NCBI GenBank assembly: GCA_963785635.1
Contig: CAWAWB010000015.1
Coordinates: forward strand, 1-64,000
Reading direction: 5' to 3'
Origin: an uncultured Phycisphaerales bacterium
Lineage (GTDB): Bacteria > Planctomycetota > Phycisphaerae > SM23-33 > FEN-1343
Length of the DNA: 64,000 bases
Shown piece by piece: positions 6,209-49,357 of the stretch. How positions within the stretch are numbered: the stretch's first letter is position 1; each line of letters starts with the position of its first letter. Position numbers and translations under genes: made by a program. The notes beneath the pieces were generated by a model. That model saw only the letters and a list, made by a program, of their open reading frames with translations, had not been told where the DNA came from and did not search any database.

Positions 6209-6264
6209 CCCCTCCCCCTTTTACGGGGGAGGGTGGCCCGAAGGGCCGGGTGAGGGTTCTTCGG
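6209..6264 (+). repeat. 55-bp double-hairpin repeat element, copy 1 of 3
   Basis: Sequence cccctcccccttttacgggggagggtggcccgaagggccgggtgagggttctt. Near-identical copies at 41611-41667 (+) and 49304-49357 (reverse complement). Confidence 0.85.
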
Positions 6265-6370
6265 TCGCATGCCCTGACGTCGCGTTCTTCTGCGATGTGC
6301 AGGCGTGAAATAAAGGAACAGCTGAGGCTTACAGCTTAAGGCTTAAGAAATGCGTCCAAAACTGATTGAC

Positions 6371-6769
6371 CTACCGGCCGGAAGTATTCTCGCGTTCGCG
6401 AATAGCTTCAGCAATCTCACGAAACTCCATTGGAACCATCGTGTGTGCTCTTACATACCATTCGCAAACATCAAGCCACTGAGAGTTTTGGTAAAACGCC
6501 AGAACAATTGGTTTAATCCCTTGGTAAGAGATATCAAACCTGTCTTTTAGCTTCTCTTCGAAAAGGCCGAAATCTGGCGTAATGTGCTTGTTCAATTGAT
6601 TGCTAACTTCCTCGAAAATATCGTGCGCATCATTTAAATCATTTTCGCCCCAGTTCATCTCGGTAACTAAAGCAGCTATTGGATTTTCGTCAGAGTCAAT
6701 CGCCTCACCCAGCAAACGAACTTGAAATTGTAGTTTTTCGATTTCGCCTTCTAAGTCTCTATCGCTCAT
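6371..6769 (-). CDS. hypothetical acidic protein (132 aa) in a low-GC islet
   Basis: Clean ORF with AT-rich codon usage distinct from its surroundings. 13-bp spacing from the upstream gene. No recognisable motifs. Confidence 0.5.
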   Translation of the reverse strand: MSDRDLEGEIEKLQFQVRLLGEAIDSDENPIAALVTEMNWGENDLNDAHDIFEEVSNQLNKHITPDFGLFEEKLKDRFDISYQGIKPIVLAFYQNSQWLDVCEWYVRAHTMVPMEFREIAEAIRERENTSGR

Positions 6770-6782
6770 AAATCGTCCTCGA

Positions 6783-7232
6783 CTATAAGTGAAGCCTCAG
6801 GTGAACCCTGGATTTTGCCGTGGAGATACCTTCCTGGATCATTGTCCTCATCTTTGAAATGATCTCAGGATGATCTGTGTCTGATTGCCCCAATTCCGAA
6901 ACTAGGCCTTGCACGGCTGAGACCATGGCTCTTATGTCTCTATCGGGGCCATCTGAAGACAACCTGTTCAGAACACCATCAAGATGCCTCTGAATTTCGC
7001 TTAATGAGCTTCCTATCTTAAATCCTCTCCGATTCGACCGAATAGCATTTTCTAAAGCATTCAATTCACTTTGCAAATGAGTAAGTGACTGTTCAATGTC
7101 AGATAAAGTTATTTGTCTAAAATCAAGTTCAACAGCTTTCTTGACCCTAAAGGCTTTAAAAGCAGCCAAAACTGAAACAAGAGCGCCGACGATTGAAGCG
7201 AAATCAGCAATGTCAGTTATTATTGAGGACAT
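6783..7232 (-). CDS. hypothetical membrane-anchored coiled-coil protein (149 aa) in a low-GC islet
   Basis: N-terminal TM helix (IITDIADFASIVGALVSVLAAFKAF) followed by predicted coiled coil. Forms an operon with 6371..6769. Confidence 0.5.
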   Translation of the reverse strand: MSSIITDIADFASIVGALVSVLAAFKAFRVKKAVELDFRQITLSDIEQSLTHLQSELNALENAIRSNRRGFKIGSSLSEIQRHLDGVLNRLSSDGPDRDIRAMVSAVQGLVSELGQSDTDHPEIISKMRTMIQEGISTAKSRVHLRLHL

Positions 7233-7417
7233 ACTCGGAAACTAATCAAACATGAAGCTCGTATCTTGTCAATGTTTTATCCTGCCGGGTGCCGTGGAGG
7301 AAAACGCATGAAGGTCGGTACTGGCAATGCGAAACAGCCCTAAAGCAACCATAAATATGCAGTTTTTGGAGATAGCTGAACCTGCAATTTCACAAACATA
7401 ACGTTCAGCCATATGGA

Positions 7418-7615
7418 TCAGGCCCGAAGGGCCGGCAGTTGGTAGCCGGCGGCGTAAGCCGCCGGACCGGGCCGTTTTTTTGGAAAAGCCCCGAAGGGGC
7501 GGCAGAATCATGGAAATCCGCAAGAATCTGTCGCCCCGTTGGGGCTCTAAACAGTTTAGCGACCATACCGGGGGCTGACGCCCCCGGCTACCAACTGTCG
7601 CCCCATTCGGGGCTT
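7418..7615 (+). repeat. cluster of six GC-rich short hairpins (REP/BIME-like), with a 12-bp long-range helix enclosing four of them
   Basis: Hairpins ggcccGAAGggcc, ccggcggcGTAAgccgccgg (+T7), gccccGAAGgggc, cgccccGTTGgggc, ccgggggcTGACgcccccgg and gccccATTCggggc. cagttggtagcc (7436-7447) is the reverse complement of ggctaccaactg (7586-7597). Confidence 0.7.
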
Positions 7616-8159
7616 ATCATGCTTGCACGAAGTGGCCGACGTCCCCATTAATTCCCATTCCTGCAGTCACGTGAGCCGAAGGCTCGCGCCATCAAATCAA
7701 TTCTGTTCTGCGCCTTTCCTCTTTCCTCTGGACCTTTGTCCCGGTGCCGTGGCTGCAACCCCTCTCCCTTGGGAGAGGGCTTGTCCTGCGAAGCTTCAGC
7801 GGAGCGGGATGCCCCGAAGGGGCGGGCTTGCCCTGCGAAGCTTTAGCGAAGCAGGGTGAGGGTTTTCCAGCAGCCACGTCTCTGGCATCGTCATATATAA
7901 GTGCCTGTCTGATAGGCTATTATGATCGACTCCTACCACAACACATTTTTCCTGCCATTTTCTGCATTTTACACCTTTACAGAATCTGGCTAACCATGTA
8001 TCATAATACTTGTCATGGTAATGCAGATTCCAATGTGGAGGATCAGAAAGAGGGATACGGAAAATTCCAGCCCCGAACCATTCCCAGAATCGCGCGGCGG
8101 AGAACCTTTGCCTTTGCGGCCGCGCAAACACTCGAGTGAACCGGGATCGCCAAAGGGCT

Positions 8160-9500
8160 GTTTACATAGATCGAAGGAATTGCGGATTGCGGATTGCGGA
8201 TTGAAGAGAGACCTGATTGGGGCGGCGCCGACTCGAATCGGCCGGCCCGCCAGCAAAGTTTCTCGAATCAAATCCACAATCCTGAACTCCCGATCCGCTA
8301 CTGGTTTTGCCTATTCCGTGTTCGCCTGTACGTTGTGACTGTGCATATGCTGTCCCTTCTTCCAATTGCGGGGTCTGTACTCTTTGCAATCCGCAATTGG
8401 AAATGTCCGTTCCATGTTCACCCCGTAACCTTGTTCCGTCTGCCGTCCCCGCTTTCGTTGTTTCAGCTCCTTTCGGCATTCTTACGGAATTGCGGCGCTG
8501 CGGTTGTGCGCGGGCTGAGAGTCTTCTCAATCCGCAATCCGAAATCCGCAATCCGCAATTCTTCACCGGCTGTTTGGACGCATGGGGTTCGCAGAGCGCT
8601 TCAGCCGATTCCAGACTTGGCTGAAACCGCCGCGTTTCCGACTCCCGCGCGAGATGGTGGAGTTTGTACTTTTTTCTTCCGCCTGCTGCATGCAGGCACT
8701 TCGGTGTGCAGCTTCCTGCCTGACAGAGGCCGGGCAGGGCGAGCGGCTGCACATCTGGTCGCCTCGGCTTCAGATGTGAGAGCCCGCACGCAAGACCGGA
8801 GGGCGTTGGCATCATCCGTTTCGGCCGCTGGTGCAGGAGAAGTGAATCCGCCGCAGGGTTCATCGGTCCGCTCGTCAAACACCGTAACTGGTCCCTTTCG
8901 AGACGGCGGTGAGCGCCCCATCCGCACGATGACAGGCAACCGCATCATCACCCAAATGATGAGCAATTGCCCCATCTGCATGATGACCGGCAGCCCTGGG
9001 ACGGTGATTCCTGCGACCGGCCGCCGTTGCCTTGAGGCGTTCGCCACGGCGCACGCGCTTGAAGCGCAATTACGGATGCTGACCCATGCCTGGCGTCACC
9101 ATAGGACCGTGGAAATGAGAAAGCCCGCCACATCCACGGGGAATTGCGGATTGCGGATTTCGGATTGCGGATTGGAGCTGCCTGAGGCTGCATCACGTTC
9201 GCTCATCGAACCTAGGTGCTGCTGTCTTACAGTTCAGCCGCAAGCCGCCAATCCAAAATCTGCAATTCCAGAGGGTCGTAGATTGCGAATTGCCAGTCGC
9301 GGATCTGAACAACTTGAGATATCTCGTTCGCTCATCGAACGTGCATCGAGTCCTCTTGCTGTTCAATCCGCAATCCGAAATCCGCAATCCGCAATTCCTC
9401 TGACCGGCGTTGCGGGGAGACCTGTTTCCTCGAACGGGCGAGTTGTTGCGCATGACCGAACGTCGACCGCGCCACGGGCGTTCCAGCCTTATTCGCGGCG
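8160..9500. repeat. non-coding block dense in GGATTGC/GCAATCC heptamer arrays arranged as inverted pairs
   Basis: Forward arrays at about 8178, 8484, 9141 and 9280. Reverse arrays at about 8383, 8524, 9247 and 9362. Two adjacent units share the palindromic core cgttcgctcatcgaac. No credible ORF; the 514-aa ORF through this block translates the repeats. Confidence 0.8.
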
Positions 9501-9982
9501 GCCCGCGGCCATGAAACTGGTTAACCATTCCCCAGAACCCCATGCGAAATCCCTAGTCCAGACGGCGCGTGTGGATCAACGCGCCCGCTGGCATACCGTC
9601 CGCCCCGCGGCGACGCTACGGATAGCGCCGCCCCGGCGCGGCGGAGTTATTCTCGAAAAATTAGCCACGGAGGACACAGGAAAAGAAAAGAGAGGACACA
9701 GAGAACTGACAATTGACAAGGTACAAATGACAAATTGATCTAATCTACAATTGACAATTCAGGGATATGTGTCCTGCTCCTCCCCCGGGTGCTGCGGCCG
9801 TCCGCGGCCGTGCGCGCGATATTCAGGAAAACACAAGGTTCACCGGAAGCCAGGGAAACCTTCATCTACTTTGTTTTTTGCACACAGCACGGCCGCCCGC
9901 GGCCGTGGCGCCCTCGCATTATTAGTACCCTCCCATCATTATTCCACCCTCCCATCATTACGATCTCCCATCTTGCCGTTTC

Positions 9983-11569
9983 CGATTAACCGATTAACAC
10001 TACAACGCCACCTGATCCATTATGCAGCAACGTATTGACGATATTCGAATGCCAAGGCTACGCAACCGTCGCTTGCGTGTTTTCACGTGGCAGCGTCGCG
10101 CTTTCTCGTTTCGTGCCTGCGTTTGAGTAATAATCTCCGCCTCCCTGGCCAGGAAGCTTTGACGAACCTGTCCCGTCAGCCACAGGGAACGCACCAGCGC
10201 CGCGGCCGCCTGGCGAATCTGGCATACGGTCAGCTGCGGATTTTTCCCCCCGCCACTGTTCCTGAACCGTGGCCAGGAACAGGTGGCTGACGGCCGTCAG
10301 CAGCAGATGACGCTTCAAGGAGCGATACCGGCGAACCTCAAAATGGTCCAGCCCCAACTCGGACTTTTCCACCTCGAAGCATTGCTCGACCCTGTACCGC
10401 GTGAAGGCCACGTGCAACATCACCTCCAGCGGCGTGCCACCCGGCGCGTTGGAGACGAAGTATTTCACCTCCTGCGGCGCCAAAATGTTGCGGGCCACAA
10501 TCAACCAATGCGCCCGCGTCGGCAGACCATCCCGTTTCAAATACAGCCGCGCCGCCTTGACCTGCCAAACCTCCGGTCCCACCGTGCTGTCCTTGACATG
10601 GAACTTCCGCCACGCTTGTTTGCGAAAAGCTGCCCCGTAGCGCAGCATGTGGCGAACCTGGATGCAGGGCAGGGTCTTGACCTTCAGACGGGGATAATGC
10701 CTCGGCCGGCCGCGCCGCGTGGCCGCACGATGCTGTTTTTGAAGAACCTCCGGTTCGCGCAGCCAGCCGTAGAAAATCGACGGCACTTCCAGGACGTAGC
10801 GCTGGCCGCACTCGTCCAGGGCGCGATGAAAGTCCGGCACTTCGCCATAACCTTCATCCCCCGTCATCCATTCAAACCGAATCCCGTTGGCCACGGCGGC
10901 GGCACGCAGTTCCAGGGCGATCTGCCACTTGGGGCGATGCTGCATTGTGTCCGGGATGCCCGCCCCCCGGCACCGAGCACGATCATCGGACCATTCCTGC
11001 GGCAAGAACATCTCCCCCGGAAGCAGGGTGTGAAAGGCGCCCGCCACATAGCTGATATGCACCGTAACCACGCAGTTATCCACCTTGCCCGTGGCGCCGC
11101 AATATTGACGCTGCACGCCGGCGGTCTTGTCGCCCTTCTTGGGATGGGCCGTCTCATCCAACACGCCAATCGACAGGGGGTGGCTGTGTTGATCGCCCAC
11201 GATCTGCATCAACCGCTGGGCCATGCGCGCATCATCCCAGTCTGCCAGCGACAGGAACTGCTGAAGCGTCCGCGGCGGAACGTCGGCCCGGTCCGCCATC
11301 GGCTCGATGCTCTTGCGCGGCAGATCCGACAATTGACCGTTGACGTAAACCCGCAGGTTGCCACAGGGCTCGCTGCGGCTGAAACAGTCGTCAAATTGTC
11401 CCAGGTACTGTTCCAACATCGGCTTGAGCTCTCGCAATTGCTTGGCATCCATGCCGTATCTCCTTTCGGGAAAAGCGCTCCCGAAAGGAACTATCGTCTG
11501 GCCGCCTGAGCTTTCTTGAGCCCAGATGGCGTTGTAGTGCTAACGGATTAACCAGTTAACCGATAAACC
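9983..11569 (-). mobile_element. IS701-family insertion sequence with imperfect terminal inverted repeats of about 28-40 bp
   Basis: Left end cgattaaccgattaacactacaacgcc. Right end ggcgttgtagtgctaacggattaaccagttaaccgataaacc (reverse complement similar). Contains a single 464-aa DDE transposase ORF. Confidence 0.8.
10058..11452 (-). CDS. transposase, IS701/IS4-superfamily DDE type
   Basis: 464 aa. Overall architecture is typical of IS701-family transposases (TGDEGYGE, HxxR-type C-terminal region). Confidence 0.8.
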   Translation of the reverse strand: MDAKQLRELKPMLEQYLGQFDDCFSRSEPCGNLRVYVNGQLSDLPRKSIEPMADRADVPPRTLQQFLSLADWDDARMAQRLMQIVGDQHSHPLSIGVLDETAHPKKGDKTAGVQRQYCGATGKVDNCVVTVHISYVAGAFHTLLPGEMFLPQEWSDDRARCRGAGIPDTMQHRPKWQIALELRAAAVANGIRFEWMTGDEGYGEVPDFHRALDECGQRYVLEVPSIFYGWLREPEVLQKQHRAATRRGRPRHYPRLKVKTLPCIQVRHMLRYGAAFRKQAWRKFHVKDSTVGPEVWQVKAARLYLKRDGLPTRAHWLIVARNILAPQEVKYFVSNAPGGTPLEVMLHVAFTRYRVEQCFEVEKSELGLDHFEVRRYRSLKRHLLLTAVSHLFLATVQEQWRGEKSAADRMPDSPGGRGAGAFPVADGTGSSKLPGQGGGDYYSNAGTKRESATLPRENTQATVA

Positions 11570-13262: not shown

Positions 13263-14592
13263 ATGGGCCAGCAGGAGACAATCGGCATCGCCCTGGTCGG
13301 CTGCGGCACGGTGGGCAGCGCCGTCGTGCGGCTGCTGGTGCGCGACAACGAACTTTTGACCCGCCGCGCGGGCGTGCGGCCGCTGCTGCGCCACGTGGTG
13401 GATGTGGATTTCACCAAGGCCCGCCAGGCCGGGGCCGATCCCGCCATCTTCCGCAAGGATCTCGCCGAGGCGCTGGATGATGTGCAGACCCGCATCATCG
13501 TCGAGCTGGTCGGCGGCACGACCTTCGCGCGCACGGTCGTGGAGCGCTCGCTCAAGGCCGGCAAGCACGTCGTCACCGCGAACAAGGCGCTACTGGCCCA
13601 CCATGGCAACGAGCTGTGGGCTTTGGCCCGCGCCAACGGCGTGTGCATCGCCTTTGAAGGCAGCCTGCGTGGGCGGCGTGCCGGTGATCGGCACGTTGCT
13701 CAACGGCCTTTTAGCCAACGATATAGAGGCGATGTACGGCATCGTCAACGGCACGTGCAATTACATCCTGTCCAACATGTCCGCGCACGGCGCGCGCTAC
13801 GGCGATGTGCTGCTCCAGGCCCAGCAGGCGGGGCTGGCTGAGGCCAATCCCTCGCTGGATGTGCAGGGCACGGACTCCGCGCACAAGATCGCCATTTTAG
13901 GCGCACTGGCCTTCGGCCAGCGCATCGACTTCGACAAGATCCACATCGAAGGCATCGACAAGCTGGATGTGGCCGACATCCGCTACGGCCAGGAACTGGG
14001 CTACACGGTCAAGTTGCTGGCCATCGCCGAGCGGCTGGACGAAGGCGTGAGCCTGCGCGTACACCCCTCGTTCATTCCGGCCACTCATCCGCTGGCGCCG
14101 GTGTCGGGAGCGTTCAACGCGCTCTCCATTTTCGCCCACGCCACGGGCCACACGCTGTATTACGGGCGTGGCGCGGGCGGCATGCCCACGGCCTCGGCGG
14201 TGGTGTCGGATATCCTGTCCATCGGCCTGGATATCGCCCCGCGGCAGTTCCGCCAGTTGGGCATCTGGCCGGACCGGTCCAGGCAAGCCAACCAGTTGCC
14301 CATCGAGGATATCCGCAGCCGCTATTACCTGCGCATCACCGGCGAAGACCGGCCGGGCGTCTTAGGCGCGATCGCCGATGTGCTGGGCCGGCACGAGATT
14401 TCCTGCGCCAGCGTGCTCCAGCACGAGTCGCCATCCCCCGCGGGAGATGGCGTCCCCGTTATTATCACGACCTACGAGGCGGTCGAAGGCAATATCGCCA
14501 ACGCCCGCGCGGAAATCGACGGCCTGGAGAGCGTGAAGGCGCCCACGGTCATCATCAGAATTGTCATGGAGCACGAGGAACCAGTCGTTTAA
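13263..14592 (+). CDS. hom: homoserine dehydrogenase with C-terminal ACT domain, frame interrupted near 13660-13670
   Basis: NAD-binding GIALVGCGTVGSAV, catalytic core and ACT domain. ORFs 13263.. and 13402..14592 are one gene split by a small indel at FEGS|VGGVPVIG. Confidence 0.85.
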
Positions 14593-14593
14593 G

Positions 14594-14745
14594 AAATCCT
14601 AAATTCGAAATCCGAAATCCTAAACAATAAGACACAAAACTCGAATAAGAACAAAAGAACAGACAGGTAACGACATTTGCTCCGGGTTTGGGATTTTGAA
14701 ATTGTTTCGGATTTAGAATTTAGGATTTCGGATTTTTCGATTTTG
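14594..14745. terminator. long imperfect hairpin built from inverted heptamer arrays (AAATCCT/AAATCCG units and complements); putative bidirectional terminator between hom and apgM
   Basis: Left arm aaatcctaaattcgaaatccgaaatcctaaac. Right arm ...cggatttagaatttaggatttcggatttttcgattttg. Confidence 0.55.
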
Positions 14746-14762
14746 ATGACGATAGAAATCCT

Positions 14763-15975
14763 ATGAAATACGCATTGATCATCATCGACGGCGCGGCGGA
14801 CAATCCTCTGCCCGAACTGGGCAACAAGACTCCCCTCGCCGCCGCCCATAAGCCAGTGATCGATTCCATCGCCCGCATGGGCCGCCTGGGCACCGCCAAA
14901 AACGTGCCCGAGGGCATGCATCCCGGCAGCGACGTGGCCATTTTAAGCATGCTGGGCTACGACCCGCGCCACCTGCTACAGCGGCCGCGCGCCCCTGGAG
15001 GCCGCCGCGCAGGGCCTGCACATCGAGGATGATGACTGGGTCCTGCGCTGCAACCTGGTGACCATCGTGGACGGCGTCATGGCCGACTATTCCGCCGGCC
15101 ACATTTCCAGCGAAGAGGCGGCCAAGCTTATCGCCGACCTGAACGCGGAACTGGCCTCCAGCGTGGTGCACTTTTATCCCGGCGTCTCCTACCGTCACCT
15201 TTTAACCATCAAGGCCGACCTGGAAGTCTCCACCACTGCCCCGCACGACATCATGGGCCAGAAGGCCGCCGACCACCTGCCCCAAGGCCGCGGCAAGGAG
15301 CTGCTGACCGACCTGATCCAGCGCAGCGCGCCCGTGCTGGCCGCCAGCGAGATCAACGCGGTCCGCCGCGACCTGGGTGAAAATTTAGCAACCTCGATCT
15401 GGCTGTGGGGCCAGGGCAAGCGGCCGCAGCTCCCATCCTTCCAGGCCAAATACGGCCACAGCGCGGCGGTGATCACCGCGGTGGACCTCGTGCGCGGCAT
15501 TGCCAAACTGACCGGCATGGATCTGATCGAGGTCCCCGGCGCCACCGGCTACGTCGATACCAACTACGCCGGCAAAGGCGCGGCCGCCGTGGCGGCGCTC
15601 GACAATCACGACATGGTGATCGTGCATGTCGAGGCGCCCGATGAGTGCGGCCACAACGCCGAACCCGAACTGAAAAAGAAATCCATCGAGGACATCGACC
15701 GCTTAATCGTCGCGCCGGTTTTAAAACACCTGGAATCGCAGGGCGACGACTGGCGGATCTTGATCGGCCCGGACCACCCCACCCCCTGCCAGGTGCGCAC
15801 CCACACCACCGATCCGGTTCCGTTTGTAATTGCCGGCAAAGACATACCGAATTTGGTCAGCCGGCCGTTTGATGAGTCCACCGCCGCGCAGGGCGATTTC
15901 CACATCGAATTCGGGCACGAGTTGATGGAATATCTGCTCAAGCCCGCACCGCCGCGCGGCGGCAGGACTGCCTGA
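14763..15975 (+). CDS. apgM: cofactor-independent phosphoglycerate mutase, archaeal-type (ApgM), frame interrupted near 14970-14985
   Basis: MKYALIIIDGAADNP... metalloenzyme N-terminus and PhosphMutase C-terminal region. The two ORFs join at YDPRH|YSGRAPLEAAAQGLHIEDDDWVLRCNL. Confidence 0.8.
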
Positions 15976-49303: not shown

Positions 49304-49357
49304 GCAAGAACCCTCACCCGGCCCTTCGGGCCACCCTCTCCCGTAAAAGGGAGAGGG
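49304..49357 (-). repeat. 55-bp double-hairpin repeat element, copy 3 of 3 (reverse complement), directly downstream of the E1 gene
   Basis: Sequence caagaaccctcacccggcccttcgggccaccctctcccgtaaaagggagagggg. Confidence 0.85.

What the first reader, a model, noticed from the sequence alone, without database searches (positions are those of the whole stretch)
6340..7260. Low-GC islet with a two-gene orphan cassette (TM-anchored coiled-coil protein plus small acidic protein)
From about 6340 to 7400 the base composition drops sharply relative to the surrounding 63% GC DNA. The islet carries two tightly spaced minus-strand genes (149 aa with an N-terminal TM helix and coiled coil; 132 aa acidic, Trp-rich C-terminus) with no recognisable family signatures. 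It abuts a REP-like hairpin cluster, a repeat-dense non-coding block and an IS701 element. This accessory context is typical of horizontally acquired toxin-antitoxin, abortive-infection or small defence modules. The pair could be a membrane effector with a soluble partner.
Basis: partly seen in the sequence, partly recalled or inferred. Interest (0 to 1): 0.55.

Follow-up and report, generated by a model that had tools for sequence, protein, structure and literature searches.

The report
Mobile membrane-anchor plus DUF1878 gene pair
The low-GC islet is real and carries a horizontally acquired two-gene operon, a membrane-anchored helical-bundle protein plus a small acidic DUF1878-fold protein, that recurs as a unit on plasmids, prophage-like elements and defence islands of unrelated bacteria, so it is an untested candidate for a new anti-phage or addiction module.

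Summary
Observation confirmed. Window ~6250-7400 has 42.5% GC against 60.4 ± 3.5% (z = -5.1). It is the only 900-nt stretch below 50% GC in the 64 kb. It holds two intact minus-strand genes, A (6783-7232, 149 aa) and B (6371-6769, 132 aa).

The pair is not a true orphan.
- An exhaustive search finds 128 B-family clusters.
- In 23 of 27 loci where the upstream side could be read, an A homologue lies directly upstream of B, often with a 4-nt overlap. Two more have a non-homologous hydrophobic protein there, one a fragment, one nothing.
- No third gene is conserved.
- A has no Pfam, PADLOC or PDB relative. It is predicted as an N-out single-pass anchor plus a cytoplasmic four-helix bundle.

In five relatives B carries a C-terminal PD-(D/E)xK motif (Mrr-like by Pfam in one), still with A upstream where checked. 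Neighbours elsewhere include Type ISP and Type I restriction enzymes, GmrSD, TIR/ThsB/SLATT, AAA_21+RloB, integrases and phage tail genes.

Best reading (about 0.45): a mobile conflict module, with A as membrane sensor or anchor and B as transducer. Function is untested. No literature was found.

The parts
6250..7400 (.). Low-GC islet (about 1.15 kb, 42-43% GC in a 60% GC window).
   Evidence: z = -5.1 for the 6340-7260 interval. It is the only 900-nt stretch below 50% GC in the 64 kb. GC3 is 0.39-0.44 against 0.74-0.92 in neighbouring genes.
6783..7232 (-). Gene A, 149 aa. It has a short N-terminus, one hydrophobic helix, a positively charged flank and a cytoplasmic four-helix bundle. Family-invariant residues are L43, R69, G70, G95, Q108 and Q133.
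6371..6769 (-). Gene B, 132 aa. It is acidic, all-helical and cytoplasmic, and is a divergent member of the DUF1878/YhaI fold. Near-invariant residues are L34, W40, F52, K86, F92, C102, Y105 and E115.
6770..6782 (-). A-B spacer of 13 nt. GAGGA lies 6 nt before B's ATG, which indicates an operon with coupled translation.
   Evidence: Sequence. In relatives the A stop and B start overlap by 4 nt or 1 nt, or are 1-11 nt apart.
6320..6336 (-). Terminator-like hairpin plus T-rich tail, 35 nt after B's stop.
   Evidence: This is a consensus match only; three such sites were found against 1.8 expected in shuffles.
7233..7400 (-). Low-GC 5' region of the cassette, presumed to hold the promoter. TTGACA lies at 7272-7267 but no canonical -10 follows. 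The region is not conserved with the L001 copy.
   Evidence: Sequence. The scan found no minus-strand promoter. The alignment shows similarity confined to the CDSs.
6235..6247 (.). GC-rich palindrome GGCCCGAAGGGCC at the downstream edge of the islet.
   Evidence: There are 5 matches in the window against 0.18 expected, and 4 of them lie around the islet.
7420..7465 (-). Acido-Lenti-1 RNA motif copy at the upstream edge of the islet. It contains the same GGCCCGAAGGGCC hairpin (7421-7433). Its relation to the cassette is unproven.
   Evidence: Rfam RF01687 at 51.6 bits, above the gathering score of 37.

Best explanation
The islet is a horizontally acquired, self-contained two-gene operon that belongs to a widespread but rare and uncharacterised family of mobile-element cargo.

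Gene A encodes a single-pass membrane protein. Its N-terminus faces out, and a conserved four-helix bundle sits in the cytoplasm. Gene B encodes a small acidic cytoplasmic protein of the DUF1878/YhaI fold.

The most likely role is a biological-conflict module, meaning anti-phage defence, abortive infection or exclusion. In this model A acts at the inner membrane as sensor and/or tether for B, and B is the transducer that carries or controls the output. In some relatives that output is a PD-(D/E)xK nuclease fused to B's C-terminus. In the minimal form found in this window the output would have to be one of two things: B binding a target once released, or A assembling in the membrane.

Shown here: foreign composition, intact genes under purifying selection, near-obligate A-B linkage and co-divergence, B's fold, nuclease fusions in relatives, and mobile or defence-rich neighbourhoods in relatives.

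Inferred, not shown: membrane insertion and topology, an A-B physical interaction, any trigger, and any protective phenotype.
For: Composition and selection: the composition is foreign. Between the window and a second Pirellulales MAG the pair is 47% and 60% identical. dN is 0.49 for A and 0.29 for B with dS saturated (omega about 0.18 for A). Similarity stops at the CDS borders and the flanking genes differ.

Family size: 128 clusters at E <= 1e-3 and 79 at E <= 1e-10, among 1.84 billion representatives.

Linkage: an A homologue sits immediately upstream of B in 23 of 27 loci where the upstream side could be read. No third gene is conserved. Pairwise identities of A and B correlate at r = 0.85, Mantel p about 2e-4.

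Topology: all 14 A members have a 19-residue hydrophobic window with a Kyte-Doolittle mean of 1.6-2.9. The N-flank is short, neutral or acidic. The following flank carries 3-5 K/R.

Effector link: five B relatives carry a C-terminal D...ExK motif, one matching Pfam Mrr_cat above its cut-off at E 1.7e-8, and the three whose loci were fetched still have A upstream.

Neighbourhoods:
- Type ISP restriction enzyme and resolvase (L005).
- TIR_2, ThsB_TIR and DUF4231/SLATT (L017).
- AAA_21, RloB and DUF4145 (L008).
- T5orf172, AAA_13 and DUF4917 (L015).
- GmrSD and Type I HsdR (L027).
- Phage tail genes, SNase and Dam methylase on an IMG/VR contig (L021).
- Two integrases on a second IMG/VR contig (L042).
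- Agrobacterium pAt plasmids (L029, L030).
Against: - No component matches any PADLOC-DB 2023 model, any toxin-antitoxin family or any PHROG of known function.
- The window's own version has no enzymatic domain, so its output is undefined.
- Several contexts are neutral. These are chromosomal sites next to gcvP, between carB and greA, or beside PBP and AhpC genes, and the pAt plasmid neighbourhood of hypothetical genes.
- Enrichment near defence genes was not tested statistically.
- The pair is rare in phage data. There is no hit in 50,697 GenBank phage records, and only 2 IMG/VR contigs in three scans whose patterns came from three B subfamilies.
- The structure models are of moderate confidence (pLDDT 72) and rest on two-sequence alignments.
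- Membrane insertion rests on hydropathy alone. The window's A has two Asp (D7, D10) in the N-terminal part of its best hydrophobic window.
Confidence: 0.45

Rival explanations
1. The pair is a toxin-antitoxin or addiction module. A is a membrane-acting toxin, B is its acidic neutralising partner, and the pair stabilises the mobile DNA that carries it.
For: The genes are small, tightly coupled and co-directional. A is membrane-anchored and B is acidic and soluble. The pair occurs on large Agrobacterium plasmids and next to integrases and IS elements. Distribution is patchy.
Against: There is no match to any toxin-antitoxin family in Pfam, NCBIfam or PADLOC. A's conserved part is a roughly 120-residue cytoplasmic bundle with invariant loop motifs (RG, GPD), unlike short pore-forming toxins. 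B shows no DNA-binding domain. B-nuclease fusions make B look like an effector carrier rather than a mere antidote. In L018 and L019 both genes are broken, rather than the toxin alone.
Confidence: 0.2
2. The pair has a non-conflict accessory role at the membrane, for example an envelope-stress or regulatory function. It would resemble other membrane-anchored helical-bundle proteins with soluble partners, and be spread by horizontal transfer because it is useful.
For: The canonical DUF1878 protein YhaI sits in a conserved chromosomal context in Bacillus. Several A-B loci lie among ordinary metabolic or envelope genes. In this window the pair lies beside an SPFH/flotillin operon. Neither protein in the window has a catalytic domain.
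Against: The composition is foreign and the context differs in every genome. The pair is convergent with the flotillin gene, not co-transcribed with it. Nuclease fusions and repeated adjacency to restriction, TIR/SLATT and AAA+RloB genes, integrases and prophage genes are hard to explain this way.
Confidence: 0.2
3. The pair serves the mobile element itself, for example in superinfection or entry exclusion, or in control of the transfer or lysogeny of the element that carries it.
For: The pair sits at the tail-module end of a prophage-like contig and directly after two integrases on another. It also occurs on conjugative pAt plasmids.
Against: No recombinase, relaxase or phage gene is consistently linked. 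Many loci, including this window, show no recognisable element around the pair apart from an IS copy 2.8 kb away.
Confidence: 0.1
4. The ORFs are chance reading frames in an AT-rich remnant, with no function.
For: Only the low GC content, which inflates ORF length.
Against: Both proteins are conserved across phyla with invariant residues and are under purifying selection. The pair is syntenic in more than 20 loci.
Confidence: 0.01

Closest known systems
YhaI of Bacillus subtilis (Pfam DUF1878, PDB 1SED), function unknown
   Different: Sequence identity is only about 16%. The B family is a separate clade. At the size of the exhaustive library, a YhaI-level match (23.5 bits) would fall below the E <= 1e-3 cut-off of the 128-cluster list. 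The Bacillus gene stands alone between prsA-like and hpr/scoC-like genes, with no A-like gene upstream. B is almost always preceded by A and is sometimes fused to a nuclease.
Two-gene defence systems with a membrane component and a cytoplasmic partner, such as Kiwa (KwaA/KwaB) (comparison from general knowledge)
   Same: The layout is the same: a membrane protein encoded just upstream of a cytoplasmic partner, carried in defence islands and on mobile elements. The output resides on the soluble partner in at least some variants.
   Different: There is no sequence match to any PADLOC model, Kiwa included. A has one predicted TM helix plus a four-helix bundle. B is a 130-residue DUF1878 fold. No phenotype is known.
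Mrr-type PD-(D/E)xK restriction nucleases (Pfam Mrr_cat)
   Same: Relatives P0011, P0013, P0014, P0016 and P0020 carry a D...ExK motif C-terminal to the B domain, and P0013 matches Pfam Mrr_cat above its cut-off (P0020 falls just below).
   Different: The window's B ends after the DUF1878-like domain and has no nuclease.
LemA-type membrane-anchored four-helix-bundle proteins (architectural comparison from general knowledge)
   Same: Both have an N-terminal anchor followed by a cytoplasmic helical bundle of about 120 residues, and both are encoded next to a small partner gene.
   Different: None of the 14 A members matches Pfam LemA or any other Pfam family consistently. Structural hits are generic bundles only.

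Membership tests
Pfam DUF1878 / YhaI fold (for B) | Score at or above the Pfam gathering threshold. | tested here: met
   25.4 bits against a cut-off of 23, E 2.1e-5, covering residues 6-78. Some relatives also pass, for example P0010 at 28.8 and P0024 at 26.0 bits.
Pfam DUF1878 / YhaI fold (for B) | Same three-dimensional fold as the solved member 1SED. | tested here: met
Known anti-phage defence systems (PADLOC-DB v2.0.0) | HMM match of a component to a catalogued system. | tested here: not met
   No hit for A or B. No consistent hit for 14 A members. Only weak nuclease-domain hits for the fused relatives.
Known anti-phage defence systems (PADLOC-DB v2.0.0) | Preferential location in defence islands or on mobile elements. 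| tested here: inconclusive
   Hallmark defence genes lie within one to three genes in 5 of about 14 independent contexts with flanks. Two further contexts are prophage-like or integrase-adjacent contigs, and one is on plasmids. Others are neutral. No background statistic was computed.
Known anti-phage defence systems (PADLOC-DB v2.0.0) | Protection of a host against phage. | not testable with these tools
   This needs cloning and phage challenge.
Toxin-antitoxin modules | Two small adjacent co-transcribed genes. | tested here: met
   The spacer is 13 nt with a Shine-Dalgarno sequence. Relatives show 4-nt overlaps.
Toxin-antitoxin modules | Recognisable toxin or antitoxin domain. | tested here: not met
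   There are no TA families among the Pfam, NCBIfam or PADLOC hits.
Toxin-antitoxin modules | Toxicity of one product that is neutralised by the other. | not testable with these tools
   This needs expression experiments.
PD-(D/E)xK nuclease effectors | Presence of the D...ExK catalytic core. | tested here: not met
   It is absent from the window's B. It is present only in five longer relatives.

The most novel reading that the evidence does not exclude
A-B is a previously undescribed family of membrane-associated anti-phage defence systems. A single-pass four-helix-bundle protein senses infection at the inner membrane and controls a DUF1878-fold partner. That partner either acts by itself (the minimal form, as in this window) or delivers a fused PD-(D/E)xK nuclease. 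If true, this would also give the first functional assignment to the DUF1878/YhaI fold.
Probability: 0.4. Interest if true: 0.65.

Novelty: new member of a known kind. Interest (0 to 1): 0.5.

Why it matters
If the pair is a defence or addiction module, it adds a compact two-gene system of under 900 bp with no homology to catalogued systems. It comes with a built-in comparison between a minimal form and a nuclease-armed form, which is useful for asking how membrane-proximal sensing is coupled to an effector.

It would also give a first functional handle on DUF1878, a Pfam family with a crystal structure since 2004 and no literature in the searched library.

The family is small, the genes are short, and cultured carriers exist (Agrobacterium fabrum pAt plasmids). 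The hypothesis is therefore cheap to test. If it turns out to be a neutral accessory pair, the finding is only a tidy example of an islet inserted among repeats in a planctomycete genome.

Tried and rejected
- Word-index protein searches found only the window's own proteins and one relative each. The family appeared only with the exhaustive profile search.
It worked with 4-sequence sub-alignments.
- The afdb50 fold library was unavailable.
- The fold search for A gave only generic bundles: designed proteins, FliS, CheA P1 and sensor four-helix bundles. The BFVD search for B gave nothing.
- Pfam and PADLOC scans of 14 A members gave no shared family.
- PDB sequence searches of the unknown C-terminal extensions of P0010 and P0036 gave nothing.
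- Literature searches for DUF1878, PF08963, the RefSeq accessions and YhaI returned no relevant paper.
- No third conserved gene exists. The 62-aa ORF upstream in L001 and the 84-aa ORF at window 7269-7523 have no counterpart in any other locus.
- The TTGACA at 7272-7267 was considered as a promoter, but no acceptable -10 follows and the scan does not call it.
- I considered whether the pair belongs to the neighbouring NfeD-like/flotillin operon. I rejected this because the genes are on the opposite strand, convergent and of different composition.
- Synteny in close relatives of this genome could not be examined.

Full report
**1. The observation**

A 300-nt sliding profile shows GC falling from 0.64-0.71 to 0.40-0.46 between about 6300 and 7350. 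Measured in 900-nt windows, the 64-kb window has mean GC 0.604 with sd 0.035. The interval 6340-7260 has GC 0.425 (z = -5.1) and is the only stretch below 0.50. In 100-nt steps the drop runs from about 6250 to 7400.

Two minus-strand ORFs fill the islet: A at 6783-7232 (149 aa) and B at 6371-6769 (132 aa). They are separated by 13 nt containing GAGGA. Their GC3 values are 0.39 and 0.44, against 0.74-0.92 in neighbouring genes.

- trigger factor, an NfeD-like gene and an SPFH/flotillin gene on one side;
- hairpins, a repeat-rich stretch without credible ORFs, and a DDE_5 (IS701-type) transposase on the other;
- then a PAS histidine kinase and homoserine dehydrogenase.

**2. The two proteins**

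Across 14 family members the N-terminus holds a 19-residue window with a Kyte-Doolittle mean of 1.6-2.9. That window is preceded by 3-16 neutral or acidic residues and followed by 3-5 Lys/Arg. This pattern indicates a single-pass anchor with the bundle in the cytoplasm. That topology is an inference from hydropathy alone. The window's A carries D7 and D10 in the N-terminal part of its best hydrophobic window.

**3. The pair is not an orphan**

The word-index search found only one relative of each protein. These two relatives are adjacent genes in an uncultured Pirellulales MAG (47% and 60% identity). That copy is also low in GC relative to its surroundings, and its flanking genes are different. 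DNA similarity between the two loci stops at the CDS borders. dN is 0.49 for A and 0.29 for B with dS saturated, giving omega of about 0.18 for A.

An exhaustive HMMER search with the B profile found 128 cluster representatives at E <= 1e-3 and 79 at E <= 1e-10, among 1.84 billion proteins. I fetched loci from several sources:
- metagenomes (13 loci);
- IMG/VR (2 contigs);
- a Kiloniella MAG;
- Agrobacterium fabrum, Methylobacterium and Methylomonas replicons in the plasmid collection;
- exact-protein look-ups.

**4. Linkage of A and B**

In 23 of 27 loci where the upstream side could be read, a homologue of A lies immediately upstream of B on the same strand. The A stop and B start overlap by 4 nt or 1 nt, or lie 1-13 nt apart. 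This count treats L018/L019 and L039/L040 as one locus each.

The other four loci are:
- Kiloniella L005 and L039/L040, which have a non-homologous hydrophobic protein in the A position;
- L018/L019, where both genes are broken into fragments (A reduced to 74 aa, B split);
- L032, which has only tandem-repeat DNA upstream.

An all-against-all comparison of every ORF within 6 kb found no third conserved gene. Pairwise identities of A and B across 14 loci correlate at r = 0.85, Mantel p about 2e-4. The two genes therefore travel and diverge as one unit.

The A family has invariant L43, R69, G70, G95, Q108 and Q133. R69/G70 and G95 fall in the loops between bundle helices. The B family has near-invariant L34, W40, F52, K86, F92, C102, Y105 and E115.

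**5. Functional leads**

First, five relatives of 229-236 aa have the B domain followed by a D...ExK motif. One of them, P0013, matches Pfam Mrr_cat above its cut-off at E 1.7e-8; P0020 falls just below its cut-off. The three whose loci were fetched still have an A-like gene upstream, with E values of 7e-11, 3e-7 and 7e-19 against the A profile in small candidate sets. Other relatives extend B with unrecognised C-terminal domains. B therefore behaves as a module to which effectors are attached, while A stays constant.

Second, the neighbourhoods are often rich in defence or mobile-element genes:
- a 1622-aa Type ISP restriction-modification enzyme ending on the start of the A-position gene, plus a resolvase (L005);
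- TIR_2, ThsB_TIR and DUF4231/SLATT directly upstream (L017);
- DUF4145, AAA_21 and RloB directly upstream (L008);
- T5orf172, a split AAA_13 and DUF4917 downstream (L015);
- GmrSD and Type I HsdR downstream (L027);
- phage Dit-like and baseplate genes upstream, with SNase and Dam methylase downstream, on a 45-kb IMG/VR contig (L021);
- two tyrosine integrases directly upstream on a 58-kb IMG/VR contig (L042);
- Agrobacterium pAt plasmids (L029, L030).

Other contexts are neutral. The pair sits between carB-like and greA-like genes (L020), upstream of gcvP (L037/L038), and among PBP, GntR and AhpC genes (L035). I did not compute a background rate, so the enrichment is suggestive only.

**6. 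Interpretation**

The data establish a conserved, mobile two-gene operon. The class of function is inferred. I favour a conflict module (about 0.45) in which A is the membrane-located sensor or tether and B is the transducer. A nuclease output is present in some lineages and unidentified in the minimal form carried by this window.

Toxin-antitoxin (0.2), a non-conflict membrane accessory role (0.2) and a function serving the carrier element (0.1) remain open. Chance ORFs are excluded.

However, the nuclease fusions argue that A need not be the effector.

**7. Comparison with what is known**

The only homologous known entity is DUF1878/YhaI, whose function is unknown. In a Bacillus genome the canonical gene stands alone between prsA-like and hpr/scoC-like genes, without an A-like partner.

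No PADLOC model matches. No paper in the searched library mentions DUF1878, PF08963 or the RefSeq accessions.

The pair resembles known membrane-plus-soluble defence pairs in layout only. I file it as a new member of the general kind 'small mobile accessory or defence-island cassette'. It is not a member of any named system.

**8. Limits**

- The structure models rest on two-sequence alignments.
- No dedicated transmembrane predictor, no multimer prediction and no statistical defence-island score were available.
- Synteny in close relatives of the window's genome could not be checked.
- The promoter was not identified.

Noticed in passing
window 7420-7465 (-) and 7568-7614 (+): Two matches to the Rfam Acido-Lenti-1 RNA motif (RF01687) score above the gathering cut-off (51.6 and 42.9 bits against 37). 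They form an inverted pair right at the upstream edge of the islet. The family was described from Acidobacteria and Lentisphaerae, whereas this window looks planctomycete-like.
   Followed up: partly
window 6235-6247, 7421-7433, 7488-7500, 7811-7823, 49320-49332: A GC-rich palindrome, GGCCCGAAGGGCC or GCCCCGAAGGGGC, occurs 5 times against 0.18 expected. Four copies cluster around the islet and one sits at each edge. It is the 3' hairpin of the Acido-Lenti-1 motif. It may mark an insertion hot spot or act as a terminator.
   Followed up: partly
window 7700-10050: About 2.4 kb has no credible ORF and is filled with runs of the heptamer GCGGATT/AATCCGC in both orientations, plus other short repeats. 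It lies between the islet and the IS701-type transposase.
   Followed up: partly
window ~14550-14850: A second, short low-GC dip (0.43) lies just after the homoserine dehydrogenase gene.
   Followed up: no
L001 9453-9510 and 10831-10888; L001 10579-10761: In the Pirellulales relative the pair is bracketed by a 58-nt direct repeat (79% identity) that contains TTGACAGGAT and a GC hairpin. It is followed by an array of 21-nt tandem repeats. In both genomes, therefore, the cassette sits among repeat elements.
   Followed up: partly
L018 1864-2575 and L019 1307-2018, compared with L020 2712-3550: The copies of the pair between carB-like and greA-like genes are broken in two related contigs: A is reduced to 74 aa and B is split in two. 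In a third contig A is intact (155 aa) but no complete B ORF was found. This could be decay or sequencing error.
   Followed up: no
L005 9468-9989; L039 1-366 / L040 68-445: In two loci the gene in the A position encodes a hydrophobic protein with no detectable similarity to A (173 aa with two hydrophobic segments; 125 aa with one). This suggests the membrane partner can be replaced.
   Followed up: partly
L034 2989-3324 (Bacillus sp. N5-665): The canonical yhaI-like DUF1878 gene stands alone between prsA-like and hpr/scoC-like genes. A YtxH-like membrane coiled-coil gene lies two genes away on the other strand. The 5.5-Mb record is labelled a plasmid in PLSDB but looks like a chromosome.
   Followed up: partly
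L015 8292-9503 and 9503-10459: An AAA_13 ATPase is split into two abutting ORFs that match the N- and C-terminal halves of the Pfam model. It lies next to T5orf172 and DUF4917 genes in the defence-rich neighbourhood of one A-B locus.
   Followed up: no
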